Source: Yuukianura sp. NJ FZ-2021 (lineage: Eukaryota). From it: a DNA stretch of 64,000 nt. Location of the stretch: contig CM102287.1 in NCBI GenBank assembly GCA_046563655.1, positions 434,001-498,000 on the forward strand, given 5' to 3'. A program made the position numbers and the translations under genes. Positions within the stretch are counted from its first letter, which is position 1, and every line of letters begins with the position of its first letter. The notes beneath the pieces were generated by a model, which saw only the letters and a program-made list of their open reading frames with translations, did not search any database and was not told where the DNA came from. This document shows, one piece after another, positions 28,401-55,502 of the stretch.

Positions 28401-31298
28401 CAAGGAACGCATCTAATACCGGTCCACTTTGTCGTAGTGCATCAACGACTATTACACACGGTGAACCACTTGTTGTCAGCCTTCATTTTTGAGCACAAAG
28501 GAGAAGTGCCGGTGAAATGACAAGCTCGCCCTCACTACAGATACCAACCAGTACTCATTTTGACACTATGAATCACAATGACTCCGACGGCAATGGAACT
28601 TCAGGGGTTCCCATTATTACATTTTCTAAATCAAAATCGAACATTCAGCATTATTTGTTATTTTGATTAAAATTTTTAGGAAATACTTTTTTATGTCATA
28701 CTACCACCTTGCACTTCCAATAAAGCACACCTGAATAACTGGTGTTCAACAATAATCTGGAATTATATTTTAGCCCAACTCCACTATGCAACAAGTGCAT
28801 AAATCTAACTGTCATTTTGGTATAAACTAATGTGGGAACTATACAACGAAGTTTTAAACATACTGAAAAGTGGAATTTATGCCTTGTTATCGCTTATAAC
28901 CATCTGCAAGGAACGCATCTAATACCGGTCCACTTTGTCGTAGTGCATCAACGACTATTACACACGGTGAACCACTTGTTGTCAGCCTTCATTTTTGAGC
29001 ACAAAGGAGAAGTGCCGGTGAAATGACAAGCTCGCCCTCACTACAGATACCAACCAGTACTCATTTTGACACTATGAATCACAATGACTCCGACGGCAAT
29101 GGAACTTCAGGGGATCCCATTATTACATTTTCTAAATCAAAATCGAACATTCAGCATTATTTGTTATTTTGATTAAAATTTTTAGGAAATACTTTTTTAT
29201 GTCATACTACCACCTTGCACTTCCAATAAAGCACACCTGAATAACTGGTGTTCAACAATAATCTGGAATTATATTTTAGCCCAACTCCACTATGCAACAA
29301 GTGCATAAATCTAACTGTCATTTTGGTATAAACTAATGTGGGAACTATACAACGAAGTTTTAAACATACTGAAAAGTGGAATTTATGCCTTGTTATCGCT
29401 TATAACCATCTGCAAGGAACGCATCTAATACCGGTCCACTTTGTCGTAGTGCATCAACGACTATTACACACGGTGAACCACTTGTTGTCAGCCTTCATCT
29501 TTGAGCACAAAGGAGAAGTGCCGGTGAAATGACAAGCTCGCCCTCACTACAGATACCAACCAGTACTCATTTTGACACTATGAATCACAATGACTCCGAC
29601 GGCAATGGAACTTCAGGGGTTCCCATTATTACATTTTCTAAATCAAAATCGAACATTCAGCATTATTTGTTATTTTGATTAAAATTTTTAGGAAATACTT
29701 TTTTATGTCATACTACCACCTTGCACTTCCAATAAAGCACACCTGAATAACTGGTGTTCAACAATAATCTGGAATTATATTTTAGCCCAACTCCACTATG
29801 CAACAAGTGCATAAATCTAACTGTCATTTTGGTATAAACTAATGTGGGAACTATACAACGAAGTTTTAAACATACTGAAAAGTGGAATTTATGCCTTGTT
29901 ATCGCTTATAGCCATCTGCAAGGAACGCATCTAATACCGGTCCACTTTGTCGTATTGCATCAACGACTATTACACACGGTGAACCACTTGTTGTCAGCCT
30001 TCATCTTTGAGCACCAAGGAGAAGTGCCGGTGAAACTACAAGCTCGCCCTCACTACAGATACCAACCAGTACTCATTTTGACACTATGAATCACAATGAC
30101 TCCGACGGCAATGGAACTTCAGGGGTTCCCATTATTACATTTTCTAAATCAAAATCGAACATTCAGCATTATTTGTTATTTTGATTAAAATTTTTAGGAA
30201 ATACTTTTTTATGTCATACTACCACCTTGCACTTCCAATAAAGCACACCTGAATAACTGGTGTTCAACAATAATCTGGAATTATATTTTAGCCCAACTCC
30301 ACTATGCAACAAGTGCATAAATCTAACTGTCATTTTGGTATAAACTAATGTGGGAACTATACAACGAAGTTTTAAACATACTGAAAAGTGGAATTTATGC
30401 CTTGTTATCGCTTATAACCATCTGCAAGGAACGCATCTAATACCGGTCCACTTTGTCGTAGTGCATCAACGACTATTACACACGGTGAACCACTTGTTGT
30501 CAGCCTTCATTTTTGAGCACAAAGGAGAAGTGCCGGTGAAATGACAAGCTCGCCCTCACTACAGATACCAACCAGTACTCATTTTGACACTATGAATCAC
30601 AATGACTCCGACGGCAATGGAACTTCAGGGGATCCCATTATTACATTTTCTAAATCAAAATCGAACATTCAGCATTATTTGTTATTTTGATTAAAATTTT
30701 TAGGAAATACTTTTTTATGTCATACTACCACCTTGCACTTCCAATAAAGCACACCTGAATAACTGGTGTTCAACAATAATCTTGAAATATATTTTAGCCC
30801 AACTCCACTATGCAACAAGTGCATAAATCTAACTGTCATTTTGGTATAAACTAATGTGGGAACTATACAACGAAGTTTTAAACATACTGAAAAGTGGAAT
30901 TTATGCCTTGTTATCGCTTATAACCATCTGCAAGGAACGCATGTAATACCGGTCCACTTTGTCGTAGTGCATCAACGACTATTACACACGGTGAACCACT
31001 TGTTGTCAGCCTTCATTTTTGAGCACAAAGGAGAAGTGCCGGTGAAATGACAAGCTCGCCCTCACTACAGATACCAGCCAGTACTCATTTTGACACTATG
31101 AATCACAATGACTCCGACGGCAATGGAACTTCAGGGGATCCCATTATTACATTTTCTAAATCAAAATCGAACATTCAGCATTATTTGTTATTTTGATTAA
31201 AATTTTTAGGAAATACTTTTTTATGTCATACTACCACCTTGCACTTCCAATAAAGCACACCTGAATAACTGGTGTTCAACAATAATCTGGAATTATAT
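10480..31298. repeat. ~506-bp tandem satellite, block 2 (~41 monomers)
   Basis: Period 506 bp (503 for monomers with a 3-bp deletion). Resumes in register after the HINE. Confidence 0.99.
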
Positions 31299-31401
31299 AT
31301 TATAAAAAAAAAAAAAAAAAAAAACAACAACAGAAAGTCACGAAAAATTCGCTCCACATTTTTCAGTTTTTTTAGGCTTTATTTAGTGAACTATCCTCCT
31401 T

Positions 31402-34400
31402 TTGCTCATATCATCTGGCAGAGCTAGTTGTGCTGGTCAACTTGTGATAAGTTTCACAAAATTACGTGACCAATCCGGCCTTAGCGGACCTGTTTCGTCA
31501 CTTGGACACCCAGTCACATTCGCTCCTTCAACAGTTACAAAGTTTTCAACAACTACATTCAACCTTCACTTCATCTCCATAGCAACAATTACGATGCAGC
31601 GAAAATTAAGAAATCGAAGTAAAATGAAATCAATTTCCATGGCAACTTCTACAACATCAAATCACTTCGATTCCGGTGCTTCTGCTTCAACAAACAACAA
31701 AGACGCTTCCCACTTTTCATCAGTTCGTGCTACCAACGAAGCTGCTTCCAACTTTTCATCAGTTCGTGCTACAAATGAAGACGCTTCCAACTTTTCATCA
31801 GATACTGCTGCCAACGAAGACTCTTCCAACTTTTCATCAGCTCGTGCTACCAATGAAGCTGCTCCCAACTTTTCATCAGTTCGTGCTACCAATGATGACG
31901 CTTCCAACTTTTCACCAGTTCGTGCTACCAATGAAGCAGATTCCAGCTTCTCATCCGAGTGTTTAACAAAATCACAAATTTCTAAACTAACTGACGACTG
32001 GATCAAGAACAACATTCAGGAGGCTTCTGGAGCTTTGATCAAGAAACAAGATCTGAAAGATAAATACCATTCTTTTTGCTCTGATGTGAAGATCAAACCT
32101 TTAGCCGACGCGACAATTGGATTGAAACTATTAAAAGCTTTTCCAAACATTACCAAAACACGAGCCGGCGGACGCAAACATTCTCAACAATCTTACTTCG
32201 ACATAACTTGGTCCGCTCCTTCCAATGAAGATATCTCTACAATTTCTCTTGGGCTAAAGCTTGCTGACTTAAGAAAATCTACGTCCACACTCAAACACAT
32301 TCCAAAAGGAGCAAGAAGAACGACCGCCTCTGCCCTGTCCACCATCATCGACCAAGCAATCGAGCACAACTCTACAGATTCTTGGGCAAAGTTATTCTAC
32401 TTCCCCTACCAAGTTTTTCCCATTCCGTCAAAAGACGATGCTGTCACAAATCTAACCAAATGGGTGAAGACAAACGCTAGCCGTATCACTTCTGAGGCGC
32501 CTGCAAACATCTCCCATCATCAATTCAAGCAATTCTCTCGTGGCCATCATCCGTCCTCACATCACTGTAACTCCTCAAAGGTCATTCAATCTAAACTAGC
32601 CGACGGGGATATACGCGGTGCAGTTCGAATCCTGGTCTCCGAAGATTGCATAGCCTCCAAAGACTGTGATACTTTGAACATTCTCCACCAATTGCATCCC
32701 GATCATCCACTACCAACCTCGTTTCCTGTCGCACCTCCGAGATCTGAGGTTATCTTTGAAAACTGTCACGTCATCAAAGCCATCTCGTCATTCCCAAATG
32801 GATCCGCCGGAGGCCTGGACTCTTTTCGTCCACAGATTCTAAAGGAACTAACTTCAAAGTCCTCAGGCGATGAAGGAGAAGCTCTTCTAGCATCAGTTTC
32901 TGGATTGTGTAACTTCATTACAAATGGTTCTCTTCCCGATGAAGTGAGACGAATTTTTTTTGGCGCAACTCTATTAGCAATCCAAAAGAAGAAAGGAGGC
33001 ATTCGTCCTATCGCAATCGGCCTTACTTGGAGACGCCTCGTGTCTAAACTTATCCTATCTCACTCGTTGAATGTCATTACTTCAACCTTAAGCCCGATCC
33101 AAGTTGGCGTTGGAATCAAGAATGGTGCTGAAGCCGTCGCCCACGCTGCCAGAATCTTCTGTAATGCCAACCATGGTTCTGCCAAGGTTCTACTCAAGAT
33201 GGACTTTCGCAATGCCTTCAACTTAATTAGAAGAGACCGTATGCTGGACATTGTGAAGACCATACTTCCAGACTTCTACAAATTCGTCTCTGAAGCTTAT
33301 TCGCACGATTCAGATCTCTACTACGACTCTGCTTGCATCAAATCGAAACTAGGAGTGCAACAGGGGGATCCCCTTGGTCCTGCTCTTTTCGCTTTAACCA
33401 TCCACCAATTGGCCTCTTCATTATCCACTGATGTCAACATCTGGTATTTAGATGACGCAACGATTGCCGATACTCCGGATGTCGTTCTCGAAAATCTCAA
33501 ATACATCCAAAGAGAAGCCTCTTCGTTTGGACTAGAACTTAACCTAAGAAAATGTGAAGTCTTCATTCTAAGTGCAGAAGCAATTGAGTCCCGCTCAATC
33601 GTCCAATCATTCCAATCTGTTTCTCCAGACATCATCTTCCCTGATTATGATCAAGCTGAACTTCTAGGAGCGCCTCTTTTCAAAGAATCGTCTCGTCGGA
33701 TTCTCAAATGCAAAACAGAGAACTTCAAGTCACTCTCATCTAAGTTGTCGGACATACCTGCCCACATTGCGTTCTACCTGCTTCGAGCTTCAATTTCCAC
33801 CCCAAGACTTCTATATTTCCTCCGATGTGCTCCTTCATTTTTGGAAACCGATCTTCTCGATGAATACGACTGTGCACTACATGCAGTGATGGAATCGATT
33901 CTCAATTCTACTTTGTCTTCACACGCTTGGTCTCAGTTAAGTCTACCGGTGAACTTGGGCGGATTAGGAGTTCGCCACGCTAAGGACTGCGCTACATTTT
34001 CGTTTTTGGCATCAGTCCATAGTTGTGCGGAGCTAATTTCTTCATTTCTGCCGTCTTCCCTGTCACCCTTCGACAATTCAATGGATTTGGCTTTGTTCAA
34101 CTGGTCTCAATTGGGCTTCGTTATTCCACAGGACAAAAAATCTCAAAACCTCTGGGAAATTCAAGTCTTTAAGCAAATTTCTTCTTCCCTAGTTCAGAAC
34201 TCTTCAACCCTTATCGACAAAGCAAGTCTACTGGCTGCCGCTGCACCACATTCTGGAGATTGGTTACACGCAATTCCCTCCGGACAACTTGGAACTCTAC
34301 TTTCGGACGAATCTTTTAGGATTTCTTGTGCTCTTCGCCTAGGAACTGATATATGCCAACCTCATATCTGCTCGTGCGGTGCTCCGGTGTCAAGTAACGG

Positions 34401-34944
34401 TCTCCACGGTTTAAGCTGTAAGCGTAGCGCCGGAAGACACTCGCGTCACAACTCAGTCAACGACATAATCTTCAGAGCATTACAAACCTCTGGATTTCCT
34501 TCAATTAAAGAACCTGTCGGCTGCAGCAGATCCGATGGCAAACGGCCAGATGGTGTTACTCTCATTCCTTGGAGCTCAGGACGCTGCCTCTGCTGGGACT
34601 TTACCTGCCGTGACACTTATGCAAATTCCTACCTTTCGACATCGTCTTCCCGCTATGGTCATGCAGCCGAATTAGCAGAGACACACAAACATCATCTCTA
34701 TCGTGACCTAGAATCTCGCTTCATCGTATCCATCATTGCCGTCGAAACTACAGGTGTATTCGGATCCGAAGGCCTTCGTCTACTGAAACAAATTGGACAT
34801 CGGCTGTCAGAAGCATCTGGAGATAAACGAGCTACGACCTTTTTGCTACAACGAATAAGTCTTGCTGTTCAACGCGGTAACTCCTGCTCAATCTTGGGAA
34901 GCTTACCCTCAGGGAAAGATCTCTACGAGTTATTCATACTATAA
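31402..34944 (+). CDS. Retrotransposon protein: 13-aa repeats + RFX-like winged helix + reverse transcriptase + CCHC-type knuckle + restriction-like endonuclease (first in-frame ATG at 31594; 31402 is a TTG)
   Basis: RT motifs SAGGLD, GGIRPIAIG, QVGVG, KMDFRNAFN, GVQQGDPLGPALF, WYLDD, GLELNLRKC and later GGLGVR. Knuckle CSC-x9-H-x3-C followed by RHN. RLE core RPDG...WDFT. No stops or frameshifts. Confidence 0.93.
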   Translation: MLISSGRASCAGQLVISFTKLRDQSGLSGPVSSLGHPVTFAPSTVTKFSTTTFNLHFISIATITMQRKLRNRSKMKSISMATSTTSNHFDSGASASTNNKDASHFSSVRATNEAASNFSSVRATNEDASNFSSDTAANEDSSNFSSARATNEAAPNFSSVRATNDDASNFSPVRATNEADSSFSSECLTKSQISKLTDDWIKNNIQEASGALIKKQDLKDKYHSFCSDVKIKPLADATIGLKLLKAFPNITKTRAGGRKHSQQSYFDITWSAPSNEDISTISLGLKLADLRKSTSTLKHIPKGARRTTASALSTIIDQAIEHNSTDSWAKLFYFPYQVFPIPSKDDAVTNLTKWVKTNASRITSEAPANISHHQFKQFSRGHHPSSHHCNSSKVIQSKLADGDIRGAVRILVSEDCIASKDCDTLNILHQLHPDHPLPTSFPVAPPRSEVIFENCHVIKAISSFPNGSAGGLDSFRPQILKELTSKSSGDEGEALLASVSGLCNFITNGSLPDEVRRIFFGATLLAIQKKKGGIRPIAIGLTWRRLVSKLILSHSLNVITSTLSPIQVGVGIKNGAEAVAHAARIFCNANHGSAKVLLKMDFRNAFNLIRRDRMLDIVKTILPDFYKFVSEAYSHDSDLYYDSACIKSKLGVQQGDPLGPALFALTIHQLASSLSTDVNIWYLDDATIADTPDVVLENLKYIQREASSFGLELNLRKCEVFILSAEAIESRSIVQSFQSVSPDIIFPDYDQAELLGAPLFKESSRRILKCKTENFKSLSSKLSDIPAHIAFYLLRASISTPRLLYFLRCAPSFLETDLLDEYDCALHAVMESILNSTLSSHAWSQLSLPVNLGGLGVRHAKDCATFSFLASVHSCAELISSFLPSSLSPFDNSMDLALFNWSQLGFVIPQDKKSQNLWEIQVFKQISSSLVQNSSTLIDKASLLAAAAPHSGDWLHAIPSGQLGTLLSDESFRISCALRLGTDICQPHICSCGAPVSSNGLHGLSCKRSAGRHSRHNSVNDIIFRALQTSGFPSIKEPVGCSRSDGKRPDGVTLIPWSSGRCLCWDFTCRDTYANSYLSTSSSRYGHAAELAETHKHHLYRDLESRFIVSIIAVETTGVFGSEGLRLLKQIGHRLSEASGDKRATTFLLQRISLAVQRGNSCSILGSLPSGKDLYELFIL
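31573..31586 (+). promoter_or_regulatory. Putative RFX-binding X-box 1 (ATCTCCATAGCAAC)
   Basis: 14/14 match to the X-box consensus RTHNYYWTRRNRAC. Ends 7 bp upstream of the first in-frame ATG. Confidence 0.5.
31633..31646 (+). promoter_or_regulatory. Putative RFX-binding X-box 2 (ATTTCCATGGCAAC)
   Basis: 14/14 match to RTHNYYWTRRNRAC, exactly 60 bp downstream of X-box 1. Confidence 0.5.
31702..31956 (+). repeat. 39-bp coding minisatellite (~6.5 copies; peptide unit like DASNFSSVRATNE)
   Basis: Directly visible in both DNA and translation. Confidence 0.95.
31981..32211 (+). other. RFX-like winged-helix DNA-binding domain (aa ~194-270 of the ORF)
   Basis: WIKNNIQEASGALIKKQDLKDKYHSFCSDVKIKPLADATIGLKLLKAFPNITKTRAGGRKHSQQSYFDI matches by eye the RFX DBD pattern WL..NYE...G..LPR..LY..Y..FC......P.N.ASFGKLIR..FP.LKTRRLG.RG.SKYHY.GI. 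Confidence 0.75.
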
Positions 34945-35003
34945 CCTAACATAAATTCTAGTCAGTATTTTGAAAGATAACAATGATAAAAACTCTTGGT
35001 TCA

Positions 35004-38000
35004 AATCTGGAATTATATTTTAGCCCAACTCCACTATGCAACAAGTGCATAAATCTAACTGTCATTTTGGTATAAACTAATGTGGGAACTATACAACGAA
35101 GTTTTAAACATACTGAAAAGTGGAATTTATGCCTTGTTATCGCTTATAACCATCTGCAAGGAACGCATGTAATACCGGTCCACTTTGTCGTAGTGCATCA
35201 ACGACTATTACACACGGTGAACCACTTGTTGTCAGCCTTCATTTTTGAGCACAAAGGAGAAGTGCCGGTGAAATGACAAGCTCGCCCTCACTACAGATAC
35301 CAGCCAGTACTCATTTTGACACTATGAATCACAATGACTCCGACGGCAATGGAACTTCAGGGGATCCCATTATTACATTTTCTAAATCAAAATCGAACAT
35401 TCAGCATTATTTGTTATTTTGATTAAAATTTTTAGGAAATACTTTTTTATGTCATACTAGCACCTTGCACTTAAAATAAAGCACACCTGAATAACTGGTG
35501 TTCAACAATAATCTGGAATTATATTTTAGCCCAACTCCACTATGCAACAAGTGCATAAATCTAACTGTCATTTTGGTATAAACTAATGTGGGAACTATAC
35601 AACGAAGTTTTAAACATACTGAAAAGTGGAATTTATGCCTTGTTATCGCTTATAACCATCTGCAAGGAACGCATCTAATACCGGTCCACTTTGTCGTAGT
35701 GCATCAACGACTATTACACACGGTGAACCACTTGTTGTCAGCCTTCATTTTTGAGCACAAAGGAGAAGTGCCGGTGAAATGACAAGCTCGCCCTCACTAC
35801 AGATACCAACCAGTACTCATTTTGACACTATGAATCACAATGACTCCGACGGCAATGGAACTTCAGGGGATCCCATTATTACATTTTCTAAATCAAAATC
35901 GAACATTCAGCATTATTTGTTATTTTGATTAAAATTTTTAGGAAATACTTTTTTATGTCATACTACCACCTTGCACTTCCAATAAAGCACACCTGAATAA
36001 CTGGTGTTCAACAATAATCTGGAATTATATTTTAGCCCAACTCCACTATGCAACAAGTGCATAAATCTAACTGTCATTTTGGTATAAACTAATGTGGGAA
36101 CTATACAACGAAGTTTTAAACATACTGAAAAGTGGAATTTATGCCTTGTTATCGCTTATAACCATCTGCAAGGAACGCATGTAATACCGGTCCACTTTGT
36201 CGTAGTGCATCAACGACTATTACACACGGTGAACCACTTGTTGTCAGCCTTCATTTTTGAGCACAAAGGAGAAGTGCCGGTGAAATGACAAGCTCGCCCT
36301 CACTACAGATACCAGCCAGTACTCATTTTGACACTATGAATCACAATGACTCCGACGGCAATGGAACTTCATGGGATCCCATTATTACATTTTCTAAATC
36401 AAAATCATACATTCAGCATTATTTGTTATTTTGATTAAAATTTTTAGGAAATACTTTTTTATGTCATACTACCACCTTGCACTTCCAATAAAGCACACCT
36501 GAATAACTGGTGTTCAACAATAATCTGGAATTATATTTTAGCCCAACTCCACTATGCAACAAGTGCATAAATCTAACTGTCATTTTGGTATAAACTAATG
36601 TGGGAACTATACAACGAAGTTTTAAACATACTGAAAAGTGGAATTTATGCCTTGTTATCGCTTATAACCATCTGCAAGGAACGCATCTAATACCGGTCCA
36701 CTTTGTCGTAGTGCATCAACGACTATTACACACGGTGAACCACTTGTTGTCAGCCTTCATTTTTGAGCACAAAGGAGAAGTGCCGGTGAAATGACAAGCT
36801 CGCCCTCACTACAGATACCAACCAGTACTCATTTTGACACTATGAATCACAATGACTCCGACGGCAATGGAACTTCAGGGGATCCCATTATTACATTTTC
36901 TAAATCAAAATCGAACATTCAGCATTATTTGTTATTTTGATTAAAATTTTTAGGAAATACTTTTTTATGTCATACTACCACCTTGCACTTCCAATAAAGC
37001 ACACCTGAATAACTGGTGTTCAACAATAATCTGGAATTATATTTTAGCCCAACTCCACTATGCAACAAGTGCATAAATCTAACTGTCATTTTGGTATAAA
37101 CTAATGTGGGAACTATACAACGAAGTTTTAAACATACTGAAAAGTGGAATTTATGCCTTGTTATCGCTTATAACCATCTGCAAGGAACGCATCTAATACC
37201 GGTCCACTTTGTCGTAGTGCATCAACGACTATTACACACGGTGAACCACTTGTTGTCAGCCTTCATTTTTGAGCACAAAGGAGAAGTGCCGGTGAAATGA
37301 CAAGCTCGCCCTCACTACAGATACCAACCAGTACTCATTTTGACACTATGAATCACAATGACTCCGACGGCAATGGAACTTCAGGGGATCCCTTTATTAC
37401 ATTTTCTAAATCAAAATCGAACATTCAGCATTATTTGTTATTTTGATTAAAATTTTTAGGAAATATTTTTTATGTCATATTACCACCTTGCACTTCTAAT
37501 AAAGCACACCTGAATAACTGGTGTTCAACAATAATCTGGAATTATATTTTAGCCCAACTCCACTATGCAACAAGTGCATAAATCTAACTGTCATTTTGGT
37601 ATAAACTAATGTGGGAACTATACAACGAAGTTTTAAACATACTGAAAAGTGGAATTTATGCCTTGTTATCGCTTATAACCATCTGCAAGGAACGCATGTA
37701 ATACCGGTCCACTTTGTCGTAGTGCATCAACGACTATTACACACGGTGAACCACTTGTTGTCAGCCTTCATTTTTGAGCACAAAGGAGAAGTGCCGGTGA
37801 AATGACAAGCTCGCCCTCACTACAGATACCAGCCAGTACTCATTTTGACACTATGAATCACAATGACTCCGACGGCAATGGAACTTCAGGGGATCCCATT
37901 ATTACATTTTCTAAATCAAAATCGAACATTCAGCATTATTTGTTATTTTGATTAAAATTTTTAGGAAATACTTTTTTATGTCATACTACCACCTTGCACT

Positions 38001-41000
38001 TCCAATAAAGCACACCTGAATAACTGGTGTTCAACAATAATCTGGAATTATATTTTAGCCCAACTCCACTATGCAACAAGTGCATAAATCTAACTGTCAT
38101 TTTGGTATAAACTAATGTGGGAACTATACAACGAAGTTTTAAACATACTGAAAAGTGGAATTTATGCCTTGTTATCGCTTATAACCATCTGCAAGGAACG
38201 CATGTAATACCGGTCCACTTTGTCGTAGTGCATCAACGACTATTACACACGGTGAACCACTTGTTGTCAGCCTTCATTTTTGAGCACAAAGGAGAAGTGC
38301 CGGTGAAATGACAAGCTCGCCCTCACTACAGATACCAACCAGTACTCATTTTGACACTATGAATCACAATGACTCCGACGGCAATGGAACTTCAGGGGAT
38401 CCCATTATTACATTTTCTAAATCAAAATCGAACATTCAGCATTATTTGTTATTTTGATTAAAATTTTTAGGAAATACTTTTTTATGTCATACTACCACCT
38501 TGCACTTCCAATAAAGCACACCTGAATAACTGGTGTTCAACAATAATCTGGAATTATATTTTAGCCCAACTCCACTATGCAACAAGTGCATAAATCTAAC
38601 TGTCATTTTGGTATAAACTAATGTGGGAACTATACAACGAAGTTTTAAACATACTGAAAAGTGGAATTTATGCCTTGTTATCGCTTATAACCATCTGCAA
38701 GGAACGCATCTAATACCGGTCCACTTTGTCGTAGTGCATCAACGACTATTACACACGGTGAACCACTTGTTGTCAGCCTTCATCTTTGAGCACAAAGGAG
38801 AAGTGCCGGTGAAATGACAAGCTCGCCCTCACTACAGATACCAACCAGTACTCATTTTGACACTATGAATCACAATGACTCCGACGGCAATGGAACTTCA
38901 GGGGATCCCATTATTACATTTTCTAAATCAAAATCGAACATTCAGCATTATTTGTTATTTTGATTAAAATTTTTAGGAAATACTTTTTATGTCATACTAC
39001 CACCTTGCACTTCCAATAAAGCACACCTGAATAACTGGTGTTCAACAATAATCTGGAATTATATTTTAGCCCAACTCCACTATGCAACAAGTGCATAAAT
39101 CTAACTGTCATTTTGGTATAAACTAATGTGGGAACTATACAACGAAGTTTTAAACATACTGAAAAGTGGAATTTATGCCTTGTTATCGCTTATAACCATC
39201 TGCAAGGAACGCATCTAATACCGGTCCACTTTGTCGTAGTGCATCAACGACTATTACACACGGTGAACCACTTGTTGTCAGCCTTCATTTTTGAGCACAA
39301 AGGAGAAGTGCCGGTGAAATGACAAGCTCGCCCTCACTACAGATACCAACCAGTACTCATTTTGACACTATGAATCACAATGACTCCGACGGCAATGGAA
39401 CTTCAGGGGATCCCATTATTACATTTTCTAAATCAAAATCGAACATTCAGCATTATTTGTTATTTTGATTAAAATTTTTAGGAAATAATTTTTTATGTCA
39501 TATTACCACCTTGCACTTCTAATAAAGCACACCTGAATAACTGGTGTTCAACAATAATCTGGAATTATATTTTAGCCCAACTCCACTATGCAACAAGTGC
39601 ATAAATCTAACTGTCATTTTGGTATAAACTAATGTGGGAACTATACAACGAAGTTTTAAACATACTGAAAAGTGGAATTTATGCCTTGTTATCGCTTATA
39701 ACCATCTGCAAGGAACGCATCTAATACCGGTCCACTTTGTCGTAGTGCATCAACGACTATTACACACGGTGAACCACTTGTTGTCAGCCTTCATTTTTGA
39801 GCACAAAGGAGAAGTGCCGGTGAAATGACAAGCTCGCCCTCACTACAGATACCAACCAGTACTCATTTTGACACTATGAATCACAATGACTCCGACGGCA
39901 ATGGAACTTCAGGGGATCCCATTATTACATTTTCTAAATCAAAATCGAACATTCAGCATTATTTGTTATTTTGATTAAAATTTTTAGGAAATACTTTTTT
40001 ATGTCATACTACCACCTTGCACTTCCAATAAAGCACACCTGAATAACTGGTGTTCAACAATAATCTGGAATTATATTTTAGCCCAACTCCACTATGCAAC
40101 AAGTGCATAAATCTAACTGTCATTTTGGTATAAACTAATGTGGGAACTATACAACGAAGTTTTAAACATACTGAAAAGTGGAATTTATGCCTTGTTATCG
40201 CTTATAACCATCTGCAAGGAACGCATCTAATACCGGTCCACTTTGTCGTAGTGCATCAACGACTATTACACACGGTGAACCACTTGTTGTCAGCCTTCAT
40301 TTTTGAGCACAAAGGAGAAGTGCCGGTGAAATGACAAGCTCGCCCTCACTACAGATACCAACCAGTACTCATTTTGACACTATGAATCACAATGACTCCG
40401 ACGGCAATGGAACTTCAGGGGATCCCATTATTACATTTTCTAAATCAAAATCGAACATTCAGCATTATTTGTTATTTTGATTAAAATTTTTAGGAAATAC
40501 TTTTTTATGTCATACTACCACCTTGCACTTCCAATAAAGCACACCTGAATAACTGGTGTTCAACAATAATCTGGAATTATATTTTAGCCCAACTCCACTA
40601 TGCAACAAGTGCATAAATCTAACTGTCATTTTGGTATAAACTAATGTGGGAACTATACAACGAAGTTTTAAACATACTGAAAAGTGGAATTTATGCCTTG
40701 TTATCGCTTATAACCATCTGCAAGGAACGCATCTAATACCGGTCCACTTTGTCGTAGTGCATCAACGACTATTACACACGGTGAACCACTTGTTGTCAGC
40801 CTTCATCTTTGAGCACAAAGGAGAAGTGCCGGTGAAATGACAAGCTCGCCCTCACTACAGATACCAACCAGTACTCATTTTGACACTATGAATCACAATG
40901 ACTCCGACGGCAATGGAACTTCAGGGGATCCCATTATTACATTTTCTAAATCAAAATCGAACATTCAGCATTATTTGTTATTTTGATTAAAATTTTTAGG

Positions 41001-44000
41001 AAATACTTTTTATGTCATACTACCACCTTGCACTTCCAATAAAGCACACCTGAATAACTGGTGTTCAACAATAATCTGGAATTATATTTTAGCCCAACTC
41101 CACTATGCAACAAGTGCATAAATCTAACTGTCATTTTGGTATAAACTAATGTGGGAACTATACAACGAAGTTTTAAACATACTGAAAAGTGGAATTTATG
41201 CCTTGTTATCGCTTATAACCATCTGCAAGGAACGCATCTAATACCGGTCCACTTTGTCGTAGTGCATCAACGACTATTACACACGGTGAACCACTTGTTG
41301 TCAGCCTTCATTTTTGAGCACAAAGGAGAAGTGCCGGTGAAATGACAAGCTCGCCCTCACTACAGATACCAACCAGTACTCATTTTGACACTATGAATCA
41401 CAATGACTCCGACGGCAATGGAACTTCAGGGGATCCCATTATTACATTTTCTAAATCAAAATCGAACATTCAGCATTATTTGTTATTTTGATTAAAATTT
41501 TTAGGAAATACTTTTTTATGTCATACTACCACCTTGCACTTAAAATAAAGCACACCTGAATAACTGGTGTTCAACAATAATCTGGAATTATATTTTAGCC
41601 CAACTCCACTATGCAACAAGTGCATAAATCTAACTGTCATTTTGGTATAAACTAATGTGGGAACTATACAACGAAGTTTTAAACATACTGAAAAGTGGAA
41701 TTTATGCCTTGTTATCGCTTATAACCATCTGCAAGGAACGCATCTAATACCGGTCCACTTTGTCGTAGTGCATCAACGACTATTACACACGGTGAACCAC
41801 TTGTTGTCAGCCTTCATTTTTGAGCACAAAGGAGAAGTGCCGGTGAAATGACAAGCTCGCCCTCACTACAGATACCAACCAGTACTCATTTTGACACTAT
41901 GAATCACAATGACTCCGACGGCAATGGAACTTCAGGGGATCCCATTATTACATTTTCTAAATCAAAATCGAACATTCAGCATTATTTGTTATTTTGATTA
42001 AAATTTTTAGGAAATACTTTTTTATGTCATACTACCACCTTGCACTTCCAATAAAGCACACCTGAATAACTGGTGTTCAACAATAATCTGGAATTATATT
42101 TTAGCCCAACTCCACTATGCAACAAGTGCATAAATCTAACTGTCATTTTGGTATAAACTAATGTGGGAACTATACAACGAAGTTTTAAACATACTGAAAA
42201 GTGGAATTTATGCCTTGTTATCGCTTATAACCATCTTCATGGAACGCATCTAATACCGGTCCACTTTGTCGTAGTGCATCAACGACTATTACACACGGTG
42301 AACCACTTGTTGTCAGCCTTCATCTTTGAGCACAAAGGAGAAGTGCCGGTGAAATGACAAGCTCGCCCTCACTACAGATACCAACCAGTACTCATTTTGA
42401 CACTATGAATCACAATGACTCCGACGGCAATGGAACTTCAGGGGTTCCCATTATTACATTTTCTAAATCAAAATCGAACATTCAGCATTATTTGTTATTT
42501 TGATTAAAATTTTTAGGAAATACTTTTTATGTCATACTACCACCTTGCACTTCCAATAAAGCACACCTGAATAACTGGTGTTCAACAATAATCTGGAATT
42601 ATATTTTAGCCCAACTCCACTATGCAACAAGTGCATAAATCTAACTGTCATTTTGGTATAAACTAATGTGGGAACTATACAACGAAGTTTTAAACATACT
42701 GAAAAGTGGAATTTATGCCTTGTTATCGCTTATAACCATCTGCAAGGAACGCATCTAATACCGGTCCACTTTGTCGTAGTGCATCAACGACTATTACACA
42801 CGGTGAACCACTTGTTGTCAGCCTTCATTTTTGAGCACAAAGGAGAAGTGCCGGTGAAATGACAAGCTCGCCCTCACTACAGATACCAACCAGTACTCAT
42901 TTTGACACTACGAATCACAATGACTCCGACGGCAATGGAACTTCAGGGGATCCCATTATTACATTTTCTAAATCAAAATCGAACATTCAGCATTATTTGT
43001 TATTTTGATTAAAATTTTTAGGAAATACTTTTTTATGTCATACTACCACCTTGCACTTCCAATAAAGCACACCTGAATAACTGGTGTTCAACAATAATCT
43101 GGAATTATATTTTAGCCCAACTCCACTATGCAACAAGTGCATAAATCTAACTGTCATTTTGGTATAAACTAATGTGGGAACTATACAACGAAGTTTTAAA
43201 CATACTGAAAAGTGGAATTTATGCCTTGTTATCGCTTATAACCATCTGCAAGGAACGCATCTAATACCGGTCCACTTTGTCGTAGTGCATCAACGACTAT
43301 TACACACGGTGAACCACTTGTTGTCAGCCTTCATTTTTGAGCACCAAGGAGAAGTGCCGGTGAAATTACAAGCTCGCCCTCACTACAGATACCAACCAGT
43401 ACTCATTTTGACACTATGAATCACAATGACTCCGACGGCAATGGAACTTCAGGGGTTCCCATTATTACATTTTCTAAATCAAAATCGAACATTCAGCATT
43501 ATTTGTTATTTTGATTAAAATTTTTAGGAAATACTTTTTTATGTCATACTACCACCTTGCACTTCCAATAAAGCACACCTGAATAACTGGTGTTCAACAA
43601 TAATCTGGAATTATATTTTAGCCCAACTCCACTATGCAACAAGTGCATAAATCTAACTGTCATTTTGGTATAAACTAATGTGGGAACTATACAACGAAGT
43701 TTTAAACATACTGAAAAGTGGAATTTATGCCTTGTTATCGCTTATAACCATCTGCAAGGAACGAATCTAATACCGGTCCACTTTGTCGTAGTGCATCAAC
43801 GACTATTACACACGGTGAACCACTTGTTGTCAGCCTTCATTTTTGAGCACAAAGGAGAAGTGCCGGTGAAATGACAAGCTCGCCCTCACTACAGATACCA
43901 ACCAGTACTCATTTTGACACTACGAATCACAATGACTCCGACGGCAATGGAACTTCAGGGGATCCCATTATTACATTTTCTAAATCAAAATCGAACATTC

Positions 44001-47000
44001 AGCATTATTTGTTATTTTGATTAAAATTTTTAGGAAATACTTTTTTATGTCATACTACCACCTTGCACTTCCAATAAAGCACACCTGAATAACTGGTGTT
44101 CAACAATAATCTGGAATTATATTTTAGCCCAACTCCACTATGCAACAAGTGCATAAATCTAACTGTCATTTTGGTATAAACTAATGTGGGAACTATACAA
44201 CGAAGTTTTAAACATACTGAAAAGTGGAATTTATGCCTTGTTATCGCTTATAACCATCTGCAAGGAACGCATCTAATACCGGTCCACTTTGTCGTAGTGC
44301 ATCAACGACTATTACACACGGTGAACCACTTGTTGTCAGCCTTCATCTTTGAGCACCAAGGAGAAGTGCCGGTGAAATGACAAGCTCGCCCTCACTACAG
44401 ATACCAACCAGTACTCATTTTGACACTATGAATCACAATGACTCCGACGGCAATGGAACTTCAGGGGTTCCCATTATTACATTTTCTAAATCAAAATCGA
44501 ACATTCAGCATTATTTGTTATTTTGATTAAAATTTTTAGGAAATACTTTTTTATGTCATACTACCACCTTGCACTTCCAATAAAGCACACCTGAATAACT
44601 GGTGTTCAACAATAATCTGGAATTATATTTTAGCCCAACTCCACTATGCAACAAGTGCATAAATCTAACTGTCATTTTGGTATAAACTAATGTGGGAACT
44701 ATACAACGAAGTTTTAAACATACTGAAAAGTGGAATTTATGCCTTGTTATCGCTTATAACCATCTGCAAGGAACGCATCTAATACCGGTCCACTTTGTCG
44801 TAGTGCATCAACGACTATTACACACGGTGAACCACTTGTTGTCAGCCTTCATTTTTGAGCACAAAGGAGAAGTGCCGGTGAAATGACAAGCTCGCCCTCA
44901 CTACAGATACCAACCAGTACTCATTTTGACACTATGAATCACAATGACTCCGACGGCAATGGAACTTCAGGGGATCCCATTATTACATTTTCTAAATCAA
45001 AATCGAACATTCAGCATTATTTGTTATTTTGATTAAAATTTTTAGGAAATACTTTTTTATGTCATACTACCACCTTGCACTTCCAATAAAGCACACCTGA
45101 ATAACTGGTGTTCAACAATAATCTGGAATTATATTTTAGCCCAACTCCACTATGCAACAAGTGCATAAATCTAACTGTCATTTTGGTATAAACTAATGTG
45201 GGAACTATACAACGAAGTTTTAAACATACTGAAAAGTGGAATTTATGCCTTGTTATCGCTTATAACCATCTTCATGGAACGCATCTAATACCGGTCCACT
45301 TTGTCGTAGTGCATCAACGACTATTACACACGGTGAACCACTTGTTGTCAGCCTTCATCTTTGAGCACAAAGGAGAAGTGCCGGTGAAATTACAAGCTCG
45401 CCCTCACTACAGATACCAACCAGTACTCATTTTGACACTATGAATCACAATGACTCCGACGGCAATGGAACTTCAGGGGTTCCCATTATTACATTTTCTA
45501 AATCAAAATCGAACATTCAGCATTATTTGTTATTTTGATTAAAATTTTTAGGAAATACTTTTTTATGTCATACTACCACCTTGCACTTCCAATAAAGCAC
45601 ACCTGAATAACTGGTGTTCAACAATAATCTGGAATTATATTTTAGCCCAACTCCACTATGCAACAAGTGCATAAATCTAACTGTCATTTTGGTATAAACT
45701 AATGTGGGAACTATACAACGAAGTTTTAAACATACTGAAAAGTGGAATTTATGCCTTGTTATCGCTTATAACCATCTGCAAGGAACGCATCTAATACCGG
45801 TCCACTTTGTCGTAGTGCATCAACGACTATTACACACGGTGAACCACTTGTTGTCAGCCTTCATTTTTGAGCACAAAGGAGAAGTGCCGGTGAAATGACA
45901 AGCTCGCCCTCACTACAGATACCAACCAGTACTCATTTTGACACTATGAATCACAATGACTCCGACGGCAATGGAACTTCAGGGGATCCCATTATTACAT
46001 TTTCTAAATCAAAATCGAACATTCAGCATTATTTGTTATTTTGATTAAAATTTTTAGGAAATACTTTTTTATGTCATACTACCACCTTGCACTTCCAATA
46101 AAGCACACCTGAATAACTGGTGTTCAACAATAATCTGGAATTATATTTTAGCCCAACTCCACTATGCAACAAGTGCATAAATCTAACTGTCATTTTGGTA
46201 TAAACTAATGTGGGAACTATACAACGAAGTTTTAAACATACTGAAAAATGGAATTTATGCCTTGTTATCGCTTATAACCATCTTCATGGAACGCATCTAA
46301 TACCGGTCCACTTTGTCGTAGTGCATCAACGACTATTACACACGGTGAACCACTTGTTGTCAGCCTTCATTTTTGAGCACAAAGGAGAAGTGCCGGTGAA
46401 ATGACAAGCTCGCCCTCACTACAGATACCAACCAGTACTCATTTTGACACTACGAATCACAATGACTCCGACGGCAATGGAACTTCAGGGGATCCCATTA
46501 TTACATTTTCTAAATCAAAATCGAACATTCAGCATTATTTGTTATTTTGATTAAAATTTTTAGGAAATACTTTTTTATGTCATACTACCACCTTGCACTT
46601 CCAATAAAGCACACCTGAATAACTGGTGTTCAACAATAATCTGGAATTATATTTTAGCCCAACTCCACTATGCAACAAGTGCATAAATCTAACTGTCATT
46701 TTGGTATAAACTAATGTGGGAACTATACAACGAAGTTTTAAACATACTGAAAAGTGGAATTTATGCCTTGTTATCGCTTATAACCATCTGCAAGGAACGC
46801 ATCTAATACCGGTCCACTTTGTCGTAGTGCATCAACGACTATTACACACGGTGAACCACTTGTTGTCAGCCTTCATTTTTGAGCACAAAGGAGAAGTGCC
46901 GGTGAAATGACAAGCTCGCCCTCACTACAGATACCAACCAGTACTCATTTTGACACTATGAATCACAATGACTCCGACGGCAATGGAACTTCAGGGGATC

Positions 47001-50000
47001 CCATTATTACATTTTCTAAATCAAAATCGAACATTCAGCATTATTTGTTATTTTGATTAAAATTTTTAGGAAATACTTTTTTATGTCATACTAGCACCTT
47101 GCACTTAAAATAAAGCACACCTGAATAACTGGTGTTCAACAATAATCTGGAATTATATTTTAGCCCAACTCCACTATGCAACAAGTGCATAAATCTAACT
47201 GTCATTTTGGTATAAACTAATGTGGGAACTATACAACGAAGTTTTAAACATACTGAAAAGTGGAATTTATGCCTTGTTATCGCTTATAACCATCTGCAAG
47301 GAACGCATCTAATACCGGTCCACTTTGTCGTAGTGCATCAACGACTATTACACACGGTGAACCACTTGTTGTCAGCCTTCATTTTTGAGCACAAAGGAGA
47401 AGTGCCGGTGAAATGACAAGCTCGCCCTCACTACAGATACCAACCAGTACTCATTTTGACACTACGAATCACAATGACTCCGACGGCAATGGAACTTCAG
47501 GGGATCCCATTATTACATTTTCTAAATCAAAATCGAACATTCAGCATTATTTGTTATTTTGATTAAAATTTTTAGGAAATACTTTTTTATGTCATACTAG
47601 CACCTTGCACTTAAAATAAAGCACACCTGAATAACTGGTGTTCAACAATAATCTGGAATGATATTTTAGCCCAACTCCACTATGCAACAAGTGCATAAAT
47701 CTAACTGTCATTTTGGTATAAACTAATGTGGGAACTATACAACGAAGTTTTAAACATACTGAAAAGTGGAATTTATGCCTTGTTATCGCTTATAACCATC
47801 TGCAAGGAACGCATCTAATACCGGTCCACTTTGTCGTAGTGCATCAACGACTATTACACACGGTGAACCACTTGTTGTCAGCCTTCATCTTTGAGCACCA
47901 AGGAGAAGTGCCGGTGAAATTACAAGCTCGCCCTCACTACAGATACCAACCAGTACTCATTTTGACACTATGAATCACAATGACTCCGACGGCAATGGAA
48001 CTTCAGGGGTTCCCATTATTACATTTTCTAAATCAAAATCGAACATTCAGCATTATTTGTTATTTTGATTAAAATTTTTAGGAAATACTTTTTTATGTCA
48101 TACTACCACCTTGCACTTCCAATAAAGCACACCTGAATAACTGGTGTTCAACAATAATCTGGAATTATATTTTAGCCCAACTCCACTATGCAACAAGTGC
48201 ATAAATCTAACTGTCATTTTGGTATAAACTAATGTGGGAACTATACAACGAAGTTTTAAACATACTGAAAAGTGGAATTTATGCCTTGTTATCGCTTATA
48301 ACCATCTGCAAGGAACGCATCTAATACCGGTCCACTTTGTCGTAGTGCATCAACGACTATTACACACGGTGAACCACTTGTTGTCAGCCTTCATTTTTGA
48401 GCACAAAGGAGAAGTGCCGGTGAAATGACAAGCTCGCCCTCACTACAGATACCAACCAGTACTCATTTTGACACTATGAATCACAATGACTCCGACGGCA
48501 ATGGAACTTCAGGGGATCCCATTATTACATTTTCTAAATCAAAATCGAACATTCAGCATTATTTGTTATTTTGATTAAAATTTTTAGGAAATACTTTTTT
48601 ATGTCATAGAACCACCTTGCACTTAAAATAAAGCACACCTGAATAACTGGTGTTCAACAATAATCTGGAATTATATTTTAGCCCAACTCCACTATGCAAC
48701 AAGTGCATAAATCTAACTGTCATTTTGGTATAAACTAATGTGGGAACTATACAACGAAGTTTTAAACATACTGAAAAGTGGAATTTATGCCTTGTTATCG
48801 CTTATAACCATCTGCAAGGAACGCATCTAATACCGGTCCACTTTGTCGTAGTGCATCAACGACTATTACACACGGTGAACCACTTGTTGTCAGCCTTCAT
48901 TTTTGAGCACAAAGGAGAAGTGCCGGTGAAATGACAAGCTCGCCCTCACTACAGATACCAACCAGTACTCATTTTGACACTATGAATCACAATGACTCCG
49001 ACGGCAATGGAACTTCAGGGGATCCCATTATTACATTTTCTAAATCAAAATCGAACATTCAGCATTATTTGTTATTTTGATTAAAATTTTTAGGAAATAC
49101 TTTTTTATGTCATACTAGCACCTTGCACTTAAAATAAAGCACACCTGAATAACTGGTGTTCAACAATAATCTGGAATTATATTTTAGCCCAACTCCACTA
49201 TGCAACAAGTGCATAAATCTAACTGTCATTTTGGTATAAACTAATGTGGGAACTATACAACGAAGTTTTAAACATACTGAAAAGTGGAATTTATGCCTTG
49301 TTATCGCTTATAACCATCTGCAAGGAACGCATCTAATACCGGTCCACTTTGTCGTAGTGCATCAACGACTATTACACACGGTGAACCACTTGTTGTCAGC
49401 CTTCAACTTTGAGCACCAAAGGAGAAGTGCCGGTGAAATGACAAGCTCGCCCTCACTACAGATACCAACCAGTACTCATTTTGACACTACGAATCACAAT
49501 GACTCCGACGGCAATGGAACTTCAGGGGATCCCATTATTACATTTTCTAAATCAAAATCGAACATTCAGCATTATTTGTTATTTTGATTAAAATTTTTAG
49601 GAAATACTTTTTTATGTCATACTAGCACCTTGCACTTAAAATAAAGCACACCTGAATAACTGGTGTTCAACAATAATCTGGAATGATATTTTAGCCCAAC
49701 TCCACTATGCAACAAGTGCATAAATCTAACTGTCATTTTGGTATAAACTAATGTGGGAACTATACAACGAAGTTTTAAACATACTGAAAAGTGGAATTTA
49801 TGCCTTGTTATCGCTTATAGCCATCTGCAAGGAACGCATCTAATACCGGTCCACTTTGTCGTAGTGCATCAACGACTATTACACACGGTGAACCACTTGT
49901 TGTCAGCCTTCATCTTTGAGCACCAAGGAGAAGTGCCGGTGAAATGACAAGCTCGCCCTCACTACAGATACCAACCAGTACTCATTTTGACACTATGAAT

Positions 50001-55450: not shown

Positions 55451-55459
55451 CTCCTCCCC
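55451..55459 (-). promoter_or_regulatory. Polypurine tract (GGGGAGGAG) abutting the 3' LTR
   Basis: The minus strand reads GGGGAGGAG|TGTAATG. Confidence 0.9.
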
Positions 55460-55502
55460 GTATGAACGTGCACGTTCATACTAAAAACTAAGCGATGTCT
55501 TC

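What the first reader, a model, noticed from the sequence alone, without database searches (positions are those of the whole stretch)
31573..31646. Two perfect X-box (RFX site) motifs at the start of the element that encodes an RFX-like domain
Seen: ATCTCCATAGCAAC (31573-31586) and ATTTCCATGGCAAC (31633-31646) lie exactly 60 bp apart and flank the first ATG (31594). Established: both fit the DAF-19/RFX consensus RTHNYYWTRRNRAC. Host RFX factors drive cilia and spermatogenesis genes, and many LINEs use internal promoters. Inference: either the element protein binds its own 5' DNA (autoregulation, 5'-end joining, self-targeting), or host RFX drives germline expression. A DBD beside its cognate-looking sites suggests a self-contained regulatory circuit. 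Caveat: the two motifs may come from one old duplication (ISIAT/ISMAT), so they are not independent.
Basis: partly seen in the sequence, partly recalled or inferred. Interest (0 to 1): 0.8.

Follow-up and report, generated by a model that had tools for sequence, protein, structure and literature searches.

The report
X-box-like pair in RFX-domain LINE
Two RFX-site look-alikes sit at the start of a jumping gene (a LINE retrotransposon) that itself encodes an RFX-type DNA-binding domain, but comparison with relatives suggests the domain is the element's DNA-targeting module and the two sites are probably not a conserved self-regulating circuit.

Summary
ATCTCCATAGCAAC (31573-31586) and ATTTCCATGGCAAC (31633-31646) both fit RTHNYYWTRRNRAC, lie 60 bp apart and in frame, and bracket the first ATG (31594).

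They lie in the 5' leader and first codons of a 3.7-kb non-LTR retrotransposon (31299-35003, + strand). It is inserted, with a 15-bp target duplication, into a 506-bp satellite that fills most of the window. Its single 1116-aa ORF has an N-terminal RFX winged-helix domain (Pfam above cut-off; fold matches RFX5 and RFX1), a reverse transcriptase, and a C-terminal R2-like restriction-like endonuclease (RLE).

A pair this close is unlikely by chance (P about 0.001-0.02 in shuffles). The comparative tests do not support a circuit:
- The four RFX-bearing relatives with upstream DNA have no strict site near their ORF starts.
- A relative without the domain has a better X-box over its start codon.
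- X-box-like words are not enriched in the 5' regions of the 45 relatives.
- This element keeps only 3 of 9 (plus 1 conservative) RFX DNA-contact residues.
- A sister-subfamily contig appears to lack both boxes.

Best reading: the RFX domain is one of several interchangeable N-terminal DNA-binding (targeting) modules, and the boxes are lineage-specific. Use by host RFX or by the element's own protein is not excluded.

The parts
31573..31586 (+). X-box-like box 1 (ATCTCCATAGCAAC). It lies in the 5' leader, 7 nt before the first ATG, and reads ISIAT in the upstream-open frame.
31633..31646 (+). X-box-like box 2 (ATTTCCATGGCAAC). It is coding (ISMAT) and contains the third in-frame ATG at 31639.
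31299..35003 (+). Full-length non-LTR retrotransposon (LINE) of the restriction-like-endonuclease type, present once in the window. The ends are good to about 15 bp, because the 3' junction may hold a degenerate longer target copy.
31284..31298 (.). Left copy of the 15-bp target-site duplication AATCTGGAATTATAT.
35004..35018 (.). Right copy of the 15-bp target-site duplication.
31304..31324 (+). Run of 21 A at the 5' junction. Its origin is unexplained. It could be non-templated addition or the tail of an earlier, almost fully truncated copy.
31594..34944 (+). Single ORF of 1116 aa. The frame is open upstream to about 31390 without an ATG.
31705..31955 (+). Coding tandem repeat, 39 bp x 6.4 (a 13-aa unit), between the N-terminus and the RFX domain.
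31990..32208 (+). RFX-type winged-helix DNA-binding domain (aa 133-205).
32980..33588 (+). Reverse transcriptase domain (aa 463-665).
34120..34941 (+). C-terminal region with a cysteine/histidine knuckle and a PD-(D/E)XK restriction-like endonuclease. The model has pLDDT 93, and its top 7 PDB matches are all R2 proteins.
35019..35524 (.). One intact 506-bp satellite monomer, the target. It has no RGYAAC or GTTRCY word. Its only GCAAC (35038) lies 20 nt after the duplication.

Best explanation
What it is. The two 14-mers are genuine X-box-like words, each with a perfect RGYAAC right half and a degenerate left half. They lie in the 5' leader and first codons of a 3.7-kb LINE of the restriction-like-endonuclease (R2-like) type, which has inserted by target-primed reverse transcription into a 506-bp satellite.

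Shown here:
- the element's anatomy: an N-terminal RFX winged helix, a reverse transcriptase, and a C-terminal zinc knuckle with an RLE nuclease;
- a 15-bp target duplication;
- a multicopy family with 5' truncation;
- membership of a wider lineage whose N-terminal module varies (SAP-PHD-RFX, PHD-RFX, RFX alone, PHD alone, C2H2 fingers).

Inferred:
- The RFX domain is the element's DNA-binding (target-positioning) module. It occupies the place of the zinc-finger/Myb domain of R2.
- In this sub-lineage its specificity has drifted away from the canonical X-box.
- The two boxes are most likely a lineage-specific, non-conserved feature. They arose in a CAAC-rich leader and around a Met-Ala-Thr codon triplet, and are not part of a conserved circuit between protein and site.
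- If they act at all, the likelier user is a host RFX factor, either as an internal-promoter element or as an exon-1 repressor site.
For: Anatomy:
- Pfam finds RVT_1 (E = 2.9e-18) and RFX_DNA_binding (E = 6.3e-10, above its cut-off).
- The RFX model's two clear PDB matches are RFX5 and RFX1; the next match has E > 0.2.
- The C-terminal model has pLDDT 93, and its top 7 PDB matches are all R2 proteins, E = 4.8e-6 to 4.2e-4.
- The element interrupts a 506-bp array once, with a duplicated AATCTGGAATTATAT.
- Depth in the runs falls towards the 5' end. In X1 it is 47, 176 and 837 in the first three bins, against thousands in the ORF body.

Modularity: Pfam on 13 relatives shows SAP+PHD+RFX, PHD+RFX, RFX alone, PHD alone or C2H2 at the N-terminus of the same RT/RLE backbone.

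Against conservation of the boxes:
- 5 of the 45 related loci reach the RFX domain. The strict consensus is absent near the ORF start of the four with upstream DNA (L001, L002, L008, L016; L010 has only 14 nt). The only hit there is a weak word, L008:2453.
- Their available flanks hold nothing at 10/14 or better, apart from two 10/14 words far upstream in L008.
- Words at 10/14 or better are no denser in the 1 kb upstream of the conserved linker (9 in 27,070 bp) than elsewhere (42 in 111,877 bp), a ratio of 0.89.
- L029 has a C2H2-type N-terminus and no RFX domain, yet carries GTTACTATGGCAAC over its first ATG.
- In run X2, contigs match only from 31603 and only up to 31644, where depth is about 780 against about 26 just downstream. 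They continue with other letters, so box 2 loses its final AC. The 30 letters shown upstream hold no box 1.

Domain drift:
- The nine RFX1 contact positions are R19, K45, R48, R57, R58, G60, R62, K66 and Y67 (PMC12311785, section 23, read).
- This element has K, L, L, T, R, G, R, Q, Q at those positions. P0003 keeps 7 identical and 2 conservative. P0001 lacks the wing.
Against: - The pair is locally improbable by chance: P = 0.001 for a pair within 60 bp in shuffles of the element, and P = 0.002 for two or more hits in the 5' 400 bp.
- Similarity between the two boxes is confined to the 14-mer. The flanks are unlike. That pattern is what selection on a motif would give.
- The closest relative, L001, has a partial echo. 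GGCAAC lies 7 nt before its first ATG, the same spacing as box 1. An 11/14 word sits over a second in-frame ATG 42 nt later.
- The satellite target has no X-box (best 9/14) and no RGYAAC word. The targeting role of the RFX domain therefore rests on analogy with R2 and on position in the protein, not on a recognisable site.
- Only one insertion of the family lies in the window, so site specificity is not shown.
- Only 4 RFX-bearing relatives had usable upstream DNA.
Confidence: 0.55

Rival explanations
1. Host RFX factors use the two boxes. The boxes are cis-elements of the element's internal promoter or first exon, read by the host's own RFX transcription factors. They either drive expression in RFX-expressing cells (ciliated or germline) or repress it. 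The element's own RFX domain plays no part.
For: - The pair is locally improbable by chance, and similarity is confined to the motif.
- X-box-like words over start codons occur in relatives both with the domain (L001, 11/14) and without it (L029, 12/14 and a strict match).
- There is a precedent for two X-boxes in a first exon. Human RFX1 and RFX3 repress MAP1A that way, as stated in PMC3245922 (passages read).
- An element sitting in a satellite needs a promoter of its own. No ribozyme or other Rfam family was found at its 5' end.
Against: - X-box-like words are not enriched in the 5' regions of the 45 relatives.
- Degenerate X-box matches are as frequent upstream of non-target genes as of targets in Drosophila, and their presence is not predictive (PMC2375033, passages read).
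- Both boxes miss the restricted consensus by one position.
- Sister-subfamily contigs appear to lack them.
- No expression data were obtainable.
Confidence: 0.2
2. Self-contained circuit. The element's own ORF protein binds the two boxes through its RFX domain. It would do so on the DNA copy, for autoregulation, for holding the 5' end during second-strand synthesis, or for self-targeting.
For: - A real RFX fold lies next to two X-box-like sites.
- The wing residues R58, G60 and R62 are retained.
- The pair is improbable by chance.
- L001 has a partial echo of the arrangement.
Against: - 5 of the 9 DNA-contact positions are changed here (K45, R48, R57, K66, Y67).
- The relatives with the most canonical domains for which DNA was available show no X-box near their starts or in the available flanks: L008 (Pfam E = 3.3e-17) and L002.
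- P0001, the closest protein, has lost the wing.
- L029 has the motif without the domain.
- There is no sign of insertion of the element into its own copies in the window.
Confidence: 0.12
3. Protein-level or duplication remnant. The two boxes are what is left of an old short duplication of the N-terminal coding sequence (ISIAT and ISMAT). They are kept, if at all, for the peptide or the start-codon context, with no role as DNA sites.
For: - Both boxes are in frame and exactly 20 codons apart.
- They are the best 14-mer direct repeat of the leader.
- The leader holds other short CAACAnnTAC repeats at 31529, 31547 and 31583.
- Contigs in X2 share only 31603-31644, which encodes the basic peptide and Met-Ala.
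Against: - The flanks at the 60-bp offset are not similar.
- Box 1 lies upstream of every ATG.
- The N-terminal peptide is not conserved in P0001-P0004.
- Fixing an ATG in the motif raises the chance of a match only a few-fold (my own estimate, not a tool result).
Confidence: 0.13

Closest known systems
R2 and the other restriction-like-endonuclease LINEs (CRE, R2, R4, NeSL and HERO clades, as listed in PMC4640811)
   Same: - One ORF with an N-terminal DNA-binding module, a reverse transcriptase, and a C-terminal zinc knuckle plus PD-(D/E)XK nuclease.
- The C-terminal model's top 7 PDB matches are R2 proteins.
- Insertion into a tandemly repeated target, with a short target duplication.
   Different: - The N-terminal module is an RFX winged helix, not zinc fingers plus Myb.
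- The target is a 506-bp satellite with no Rfam family, not 28S rDNA.
- Sequence similarity to R2 is marginal: RT only, E = 0.004-0.007.
- The clade among the five was not resolved here.
RFX transcription-factor DNA-binding domain (RFX5, PDB 8ZJR; RFX1, PDB 1DP7)
   Same: - Passes the Pfam RFX_DNA_binding cut-off.
- Same fold, with TM-score normalised to the target 0.84 and 0.87 and rmsd 1.8 A.
- The wing residues R58, G60 and R62 are kept.
   Different: - It sits in a retrotransposon ORF.
- K45, R48, R57, K66 and Y67 are replaced.
- No dimerisation or other RFX-factor domains were found.
X-box promoter motifs of RFX/DAF-19 target genes, including genes with two X-boxes (C. elegans F25B4.2; human MAP1A exon 1; PMC3245922)
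   Same: - A 14-bp word with a perfect RGYAAC half.
- Two copies close to the start codon.
   Different: - Each misses the restricted consensus RTNRCC-N(1-3)-RGYAAC by one position.
- Not conserved in relatives.
- One copy is coding.
- No binding data.
Internal promoters of LINE 5' UTRs that carry host transcription-factor sites (recalled from general knowledge of human L1; not checked in a call)
   Same: Candidate factor sites lie downstream of the element's 5' end.
   Different: There is no evidence here of a transcription start or of factor binding.

Membership tests
X-box (RFX binding site) | Match to the degenerate 14-bp consensus RTHNYYWTRRNRAC | tested here: met
Both boxes match with 0 mismatches. 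I did not find it in the paper library.
X-box (RFX binding site) | Match to the restricted consensus RTNRCC N1-3 RGYAAC (PMC2375033) | tested here: not met
   Each box has one mismatch, a T where R is required in the left half. The right half-site is perfect in both.
X-box (RFX binding site) | Conservation of the site in related sequences, the criterion that separated real targets from controls in PMC2375033 | tested here: not met
   There is no strict site near the ORF start in the four RFX-bearing loci with upstream DNA. There is no 5' enrichment over the 45 loci. L001 has only a partial echo. Sister-subfamily contigs diverge inside box 2.
X-box (RFX binding site) | Bound by an RFX protein | not testable with these tools
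   This needs EMSA, SELEX or ChIP.
RFX DNA-binding domain (PF02257) | Profile score above the curated cut-off | tested here: met
   40 bits against 27, aa 133-205. RFX5 matches at E = 8.8e-8 and RFX1 at E = 0.0025.
RFX DNA-binding domain (PF02257) | Winged-helix fold of RFX type | tested here: met
   The model has pLDDT 82.5. Its top two PDB matches are 8zjr_M and 1dp7_P, with probability 1.00 and rmsd 1.8 A. The next match has E > 0.2.
RFX DNA-binding domain (PF02257) | The nine DNA-contact residues of RFX1 (R19, K45, R48, R57, R58, G60, R62, K66, Y67) | tested here: not met
   3 are identical, 1 is conservative and 5 are changed. The residue list comes from PMC12311785, section 23.
Restriction-like-endonuclease LINE (R2-like) | Reverse transcriptase in a single ORF | tested here: met
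   RVT_1 at E = 2.9e-18, in one 1116-aa ORF.
Restriction-like-endonuclease LINE (R2-like) | C-terminal zinc knuckle plus PD-(D/E)XK nuclease | tested here: met
   The model has pLDDT 93. Its top 7 PDB matches are R2 proteins, followed by PD-(D/E)XK nucleases. The C and H columns and the D/G columns are invariant in the 21-sequence alignment.
Restriction-like-endonuclease LINE (R2-like) | Recurrent insertion at one target sequence | tested here: inconclusive
   There is one insertion in the window, at one point of a highly uniform satellite: 84 of 89 upstream contexts and 86 of 89 downstream contexts are identical. Other copies' junctions could not be read. No whole genome is held.
R2 clade proper | 28S rDNA target and an N-terminal zinc-finger/Myb module | tested here: not met
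   The target has no Rfam match. The N-terminal module is RFX. RT similarity to R2 is only E about 0.004.

The most novel reading that the evidence does not exclude
A LINE lineage has captured a host RFX DNA-binding domain. In this member it has also acquired two RFX-type sites around its own start codon, so the ORF protein recognises the DNA of its own 5' end. That would be a retrotransposon-encoded factor with cognate sites in cis. It could be used to autoregulate transcription, or to hold the 5' end of the new copy during second-strand synthesis.
Probability: 0.12. Interest if true: 0.75.

Novelty: new variant of a known kind. Interest (0 to 1): 0.4.

Why it matters
RLE-type LINEs such as R2 are being developed as site-specific gene-insertion tools, and their N-terminal DNA-binding modules set where they land.

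A natural lineage that swaps SAP, PHD, C2H2 and RFX winged-helix modules on one RT/RLE backbone shows how these elements retarget. It offers a new, well-understood DNA-binding fold to study in that role. I found no paper describing an RFX domain in a retrotransposon.

The X-box pair would matter only if binding is shown. It would then be a rare case of a mobile element carrying both a captured transcription-factor domain and sites of that factor's type.

Tried and rejected
- Whole-genome search for other copies: no genome is held for this window.
- RNA runs: no RNA holder was listed, so nothing can be said on expression or a transcription start.
- RNA-structure explanation: 31500-31700 folds no better than shuffles (z = 0.28; 117 of 200 shuffles fold as well).
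- Ribozyme or small-RNA gene in the element or target: 0 Rfam matches at E up to 1 in 29500-37000, and 0 at gathering score in 20 of the 45 related loci.
- Idea that box 1 mimics the target just downstream of the insertion (CTCCAcTAtGCAACAA against CTCCATAGCAACAA): the local alignment score of 21 is reached by 129 of 1000 shuffles. The monomer's single GCAAC, 20 nt after the duplication, is what a 506-bp unit would hold by chance.
- Nucleotide homology between this leader and L001's: MAFFT gave no convincing register for the boxes.
- Start-codon context as a full explanation of box 2: by my own estimate it raises the chance only a few-fold, so I rejected it as sufficient on its own.
- Clade assignment among CRE, R2, R4, NeSL and HERO: no named reference sequences were available, and a literature search was unproductive.
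- Literature check of the consensus string: 0 papers.
They were corrected, or dropped.
Full report
**1. The observation**

Both match RTHNYYWTRRNRAC without mismatch. Their starts are 60 bp apart. Both are in the reading frame of the long ORF and read ISIAT and ISMAT. Box 1 ends 7 nt before the first ATG (31594). Box 2 contains the third in-frame ATG (31639); another lies at 31624. The frame is open, without an ATG, back to about 31390.

**2. Is it more than chance?**

- Over the whole window the consensus is not enriched: 3 matches against 5.55 expected. That control is misleading, because the window is about 115 copies of one 506-bp unit.
- In 2000 dinucleotide shuffles of the element alone, the mean is 0.18 hits, P(2 or more) is 0.021 and P(a pair within 60 bp) is 0.001.
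- For the 5' 400 bp, P(2 or more) is 0.002. In 300 shuffles of the window, a pair within 60 bp arose with P = 0.013.
- The two boxes are the best 14-mer direct repeat of the leader (12/14). The flanks at the same offset are unlike, so a longer duplication is not visible.
- Both have a perfect RGYAAC right half and a degenerate left half. Each misses the restricted consensus RTNRCC-NN-RGYAAC by one position. That consensus is from PMC2375033 (passages read).
- The same paper states that matches to degenerate X-box consensuses are as frequent upstream of non-target genes, and that conservation, not presence, predicts function.

**3. What surrounds them**

- Self-comparison shows that 31303-35003 is unique in the window. 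It interrupts a tandem array of a 506-bp unit whose copies are 96-99.7% alike.
- The junctions show a duplicated AATCTGGAATTATAT at 31284-31298 and 35004-35018.
- The satellite around this point is nearly invariant: 84 of 89 upstream contexts and 86 of 89 downstream contexts are identical.
- The satellite and the element have no Rfam match, even at E up to 1.
- The insert carries one ORF of 1116 aa, with RVT_1 at aa 463-665 and RFX_DNA_binding at aa 133-205. The RFX match scores 40 bits against a cut-off of 27.
- A model of the last 274 residues has pLDDT 93. Its seven best PDB matches are all R2 retrotransposon proteins, followed by PD-(D/E)XK nucleases.
- A model of the RFX region has pLDDT 82.5. 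It matches only RFX5 (8ZJR) and RFX1 (1DP7) clearly, with rmsd 1.8 A.

The thing is therefore a full-length LINE of the restriction-like-endonuclease type with an RFX winged helix at its N-terminus. By sequence it is far from R2 proper (RT only, E about 0.004). I could not place it among the five RLE clades named in PMC4640811 (passages read).

**4. The family**

- A protein search gave 43 relatives. The four closest are 41-52% identical. Three of them carry the RFX domain above the Pfam cut-off. In P0001 it is degenerate, at 18.9 bits.
- On the same RT/RLE backbone the N-terminus is SAP+PHD+RFX (P0004), PHD+RFX (P0003, and L002 by reading), RFX alone (this element, P0002, L008), PHD alone (P0006, P0014, L021) or C2H2 fingers (P0005).
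- Public runs of two coded organisms hold the element nearly unchanged and in many copies. Depth falls towards the 5' end, as expected for 5'-truncated LINE copies.

**5. Tests of the circuit idea**

(a) Conservation.
- A scan of metagenome contigs gave 45 related loci (138,947 bp). In five of them the match reaches the RFX domain: L001, L002, L008, L010 and L016.
- The strict consensus occurs at 10 sites (12 hits) in all 45 loci. None lies near the ORF start of the four RFX-bearing loci with upstream DNA, except a weak word lacking the GCAAC core in L008.
- Their available flanks hold nothing at 10/14 or better to the palindromic consensus, apart from two 10/14 words far upstream in L008.
- Over all loci, words at 10/14 or better are no denser in the 1 kb upstream of the conserved linker (9 in 27,070 bp) than elsewhere (42 in 111,877 bp).

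(b) A relative without the domain. L029 has a C2H2-type N-terminus, yet carries a strict and nearly palindromic X-box (12/14) over its first ATG.

(c) In favour. The closest locus, L001, has GGCAAC 7 nt before its first ATG. It also has an 11/14 word over a second in-frame ATG 42 nt later. MAFFT does not align these with the boxes.

(d) Sister subfamily. In run X2, contigs match the element only from 31603 and only up to 31644. Depth there is about 780, against about 26 just downstream. Their continuation replaces the last two letters of box 2, and the 30 letters shown upstream contain no box 1. This rests on short loose-end consensuses of assembled contigs and is weaker than an alignment.

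(e) The domain itself.
- PMC12311785 (section 23, read) lists the RFX1 residues that bond to DNA: K45, R48, R19, Y67, K66, R58, and R57, G60, R62.
- Using the alignments, this element has K, L, L, T, R, G, R, Q, Q at R19, K45, R48, R57, R58, G60, R62, K66, Y67. That is three identical, one conservative and five changed.
- P0003 keeps seven identical and two conservative. P0001 has lost the wing.
- The sub-lineage to which this element belongs is thus drifting away from canonical X-box recognition.

(f) The target. The satellite has no X-box (best 9/14) and no RGYAAC or GTTRCY word. Its single GCAAC lies 20 nt after the duplication. Its resemblance to box 1 is reached by 129 of 1000 shuffles.

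(g) RNA structure. The region has no unusual RNA structure.

**6. Reading**

The anatomy is shown; the roles are inferred. In R2 the N-terminal DNA-binding module positions the protein on the target. That role is recalled from general knowledge of R2; the R2 papers in the listing were seen as listing and abstracts only. The RFX domain sits in the same place, and it is one of several alternative modules in the lineage.

I take it to be the element's DNA-binding and targeting module, with a specificity that can no longer be assumed to be the X-box.

The two boxes are real and locally improbable. They are not conserved, and they occur beside a drifted domain. I rate a lineage-specific, non-circuit origin at about 0.55, use by host RFX at about 0.2, binding by the element's own protein at about 0.12, and a pure coding or duplication remnant at about 0.13. 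PMC3245922 gives precedents for host use of two X-boxes: two X-boxes in one gene, and repression of MAP1A through two exon-1 X-boxes (passages read).

**7. Novelty**

Four searches of the paper library found no description of an RFX domain in a retrotransposon. Repbase reports and subscription journals are not covered by that library. The element is a new variant of a known kind (RLE LINE). The X-box pair is a lead that only binding and reporter experiments, or a full-genome comparison of subfamily leaders, can settle.

Noticed in passing
window 1-9438, 10476-31298, 35004-53499, 61345-64000: Most of the window is a tandem array of a 506-bp satellite, about 115 units that are 96-99.7% alike. 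It has no Rfam match and no long ORF. Three different mobile elements have landed in it.
   Followed up: partly
window 9439-10475: A 1037-bp insertion at a different point of the satellite unit, with about 6 bp of the unit repeated at both sides. It starts with AGTCTTCTGG, and a complementary CCAGAAGAC lies near its end. It has no long ORF. It may be a small non-autonomous DNA transposon.
   Followed up: partly
window 53500-61344, - strand: An LTR retrotransposon with two long terminal repeats of about 2.1 kb. Their first 300 nt are 100% identical (53500 and 59261), and they contain 77-bp and 67-bp internal tandem repeats. A 1074-aa stop-free reading frame carries gag-like zinc knuckles, protease-like and RT-like sequence. 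The internal part is only about 3.7 kb, so it is probably a deleted copy. I described it only.
   Followed up: partly
window 31304-31324: A run of 21 A lies exactly at the 5' junction of the LINE, while its 3' end has no poly(A). This is unexplained. It could be non-templated addition at the end of reverse transcription, or the tail of an earlier, almost fully truncated copy.
   Followed up: no
window 31705-31955: A 39-bp coding tandem repeat (6.4 copies of a 13-aa unit rich in S, N, A, F) lies between the basic N-terminal peptide and the RFX domain. Contigs in the runs show joints that go back by 146 and 234 bases here, which suggests the copy number varies.
   Followed up: partly
window 31412-31563: One contig of run X1 joins 31412 directly to 31563. 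A metagenome run (X6) has other sequence between the same two points. The 5' leader therefore seems modular among subfamilies, and the block that starts at 31563 begins 10 nt before box 1.
   Followed up: partly
L029 878-891: A relative with a C2H2-type N-terminus and no RFX domain has a near-palindromic X-box (GTTACTATGGCAAC) exactly over its first ATG. On my rough estimate about 0.13 such both-halves-perfect words are expected in all 139 kb of loci, so its position is curious.
   Followed up: partly
L002 1110-1330: Upstream of the RFX-coding part of this relative lies a PHD-finger coding stretch in another frame or behind a stop. The copy is therefore a PHD-RFX element with a broken 5' part.
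   Followed up: no
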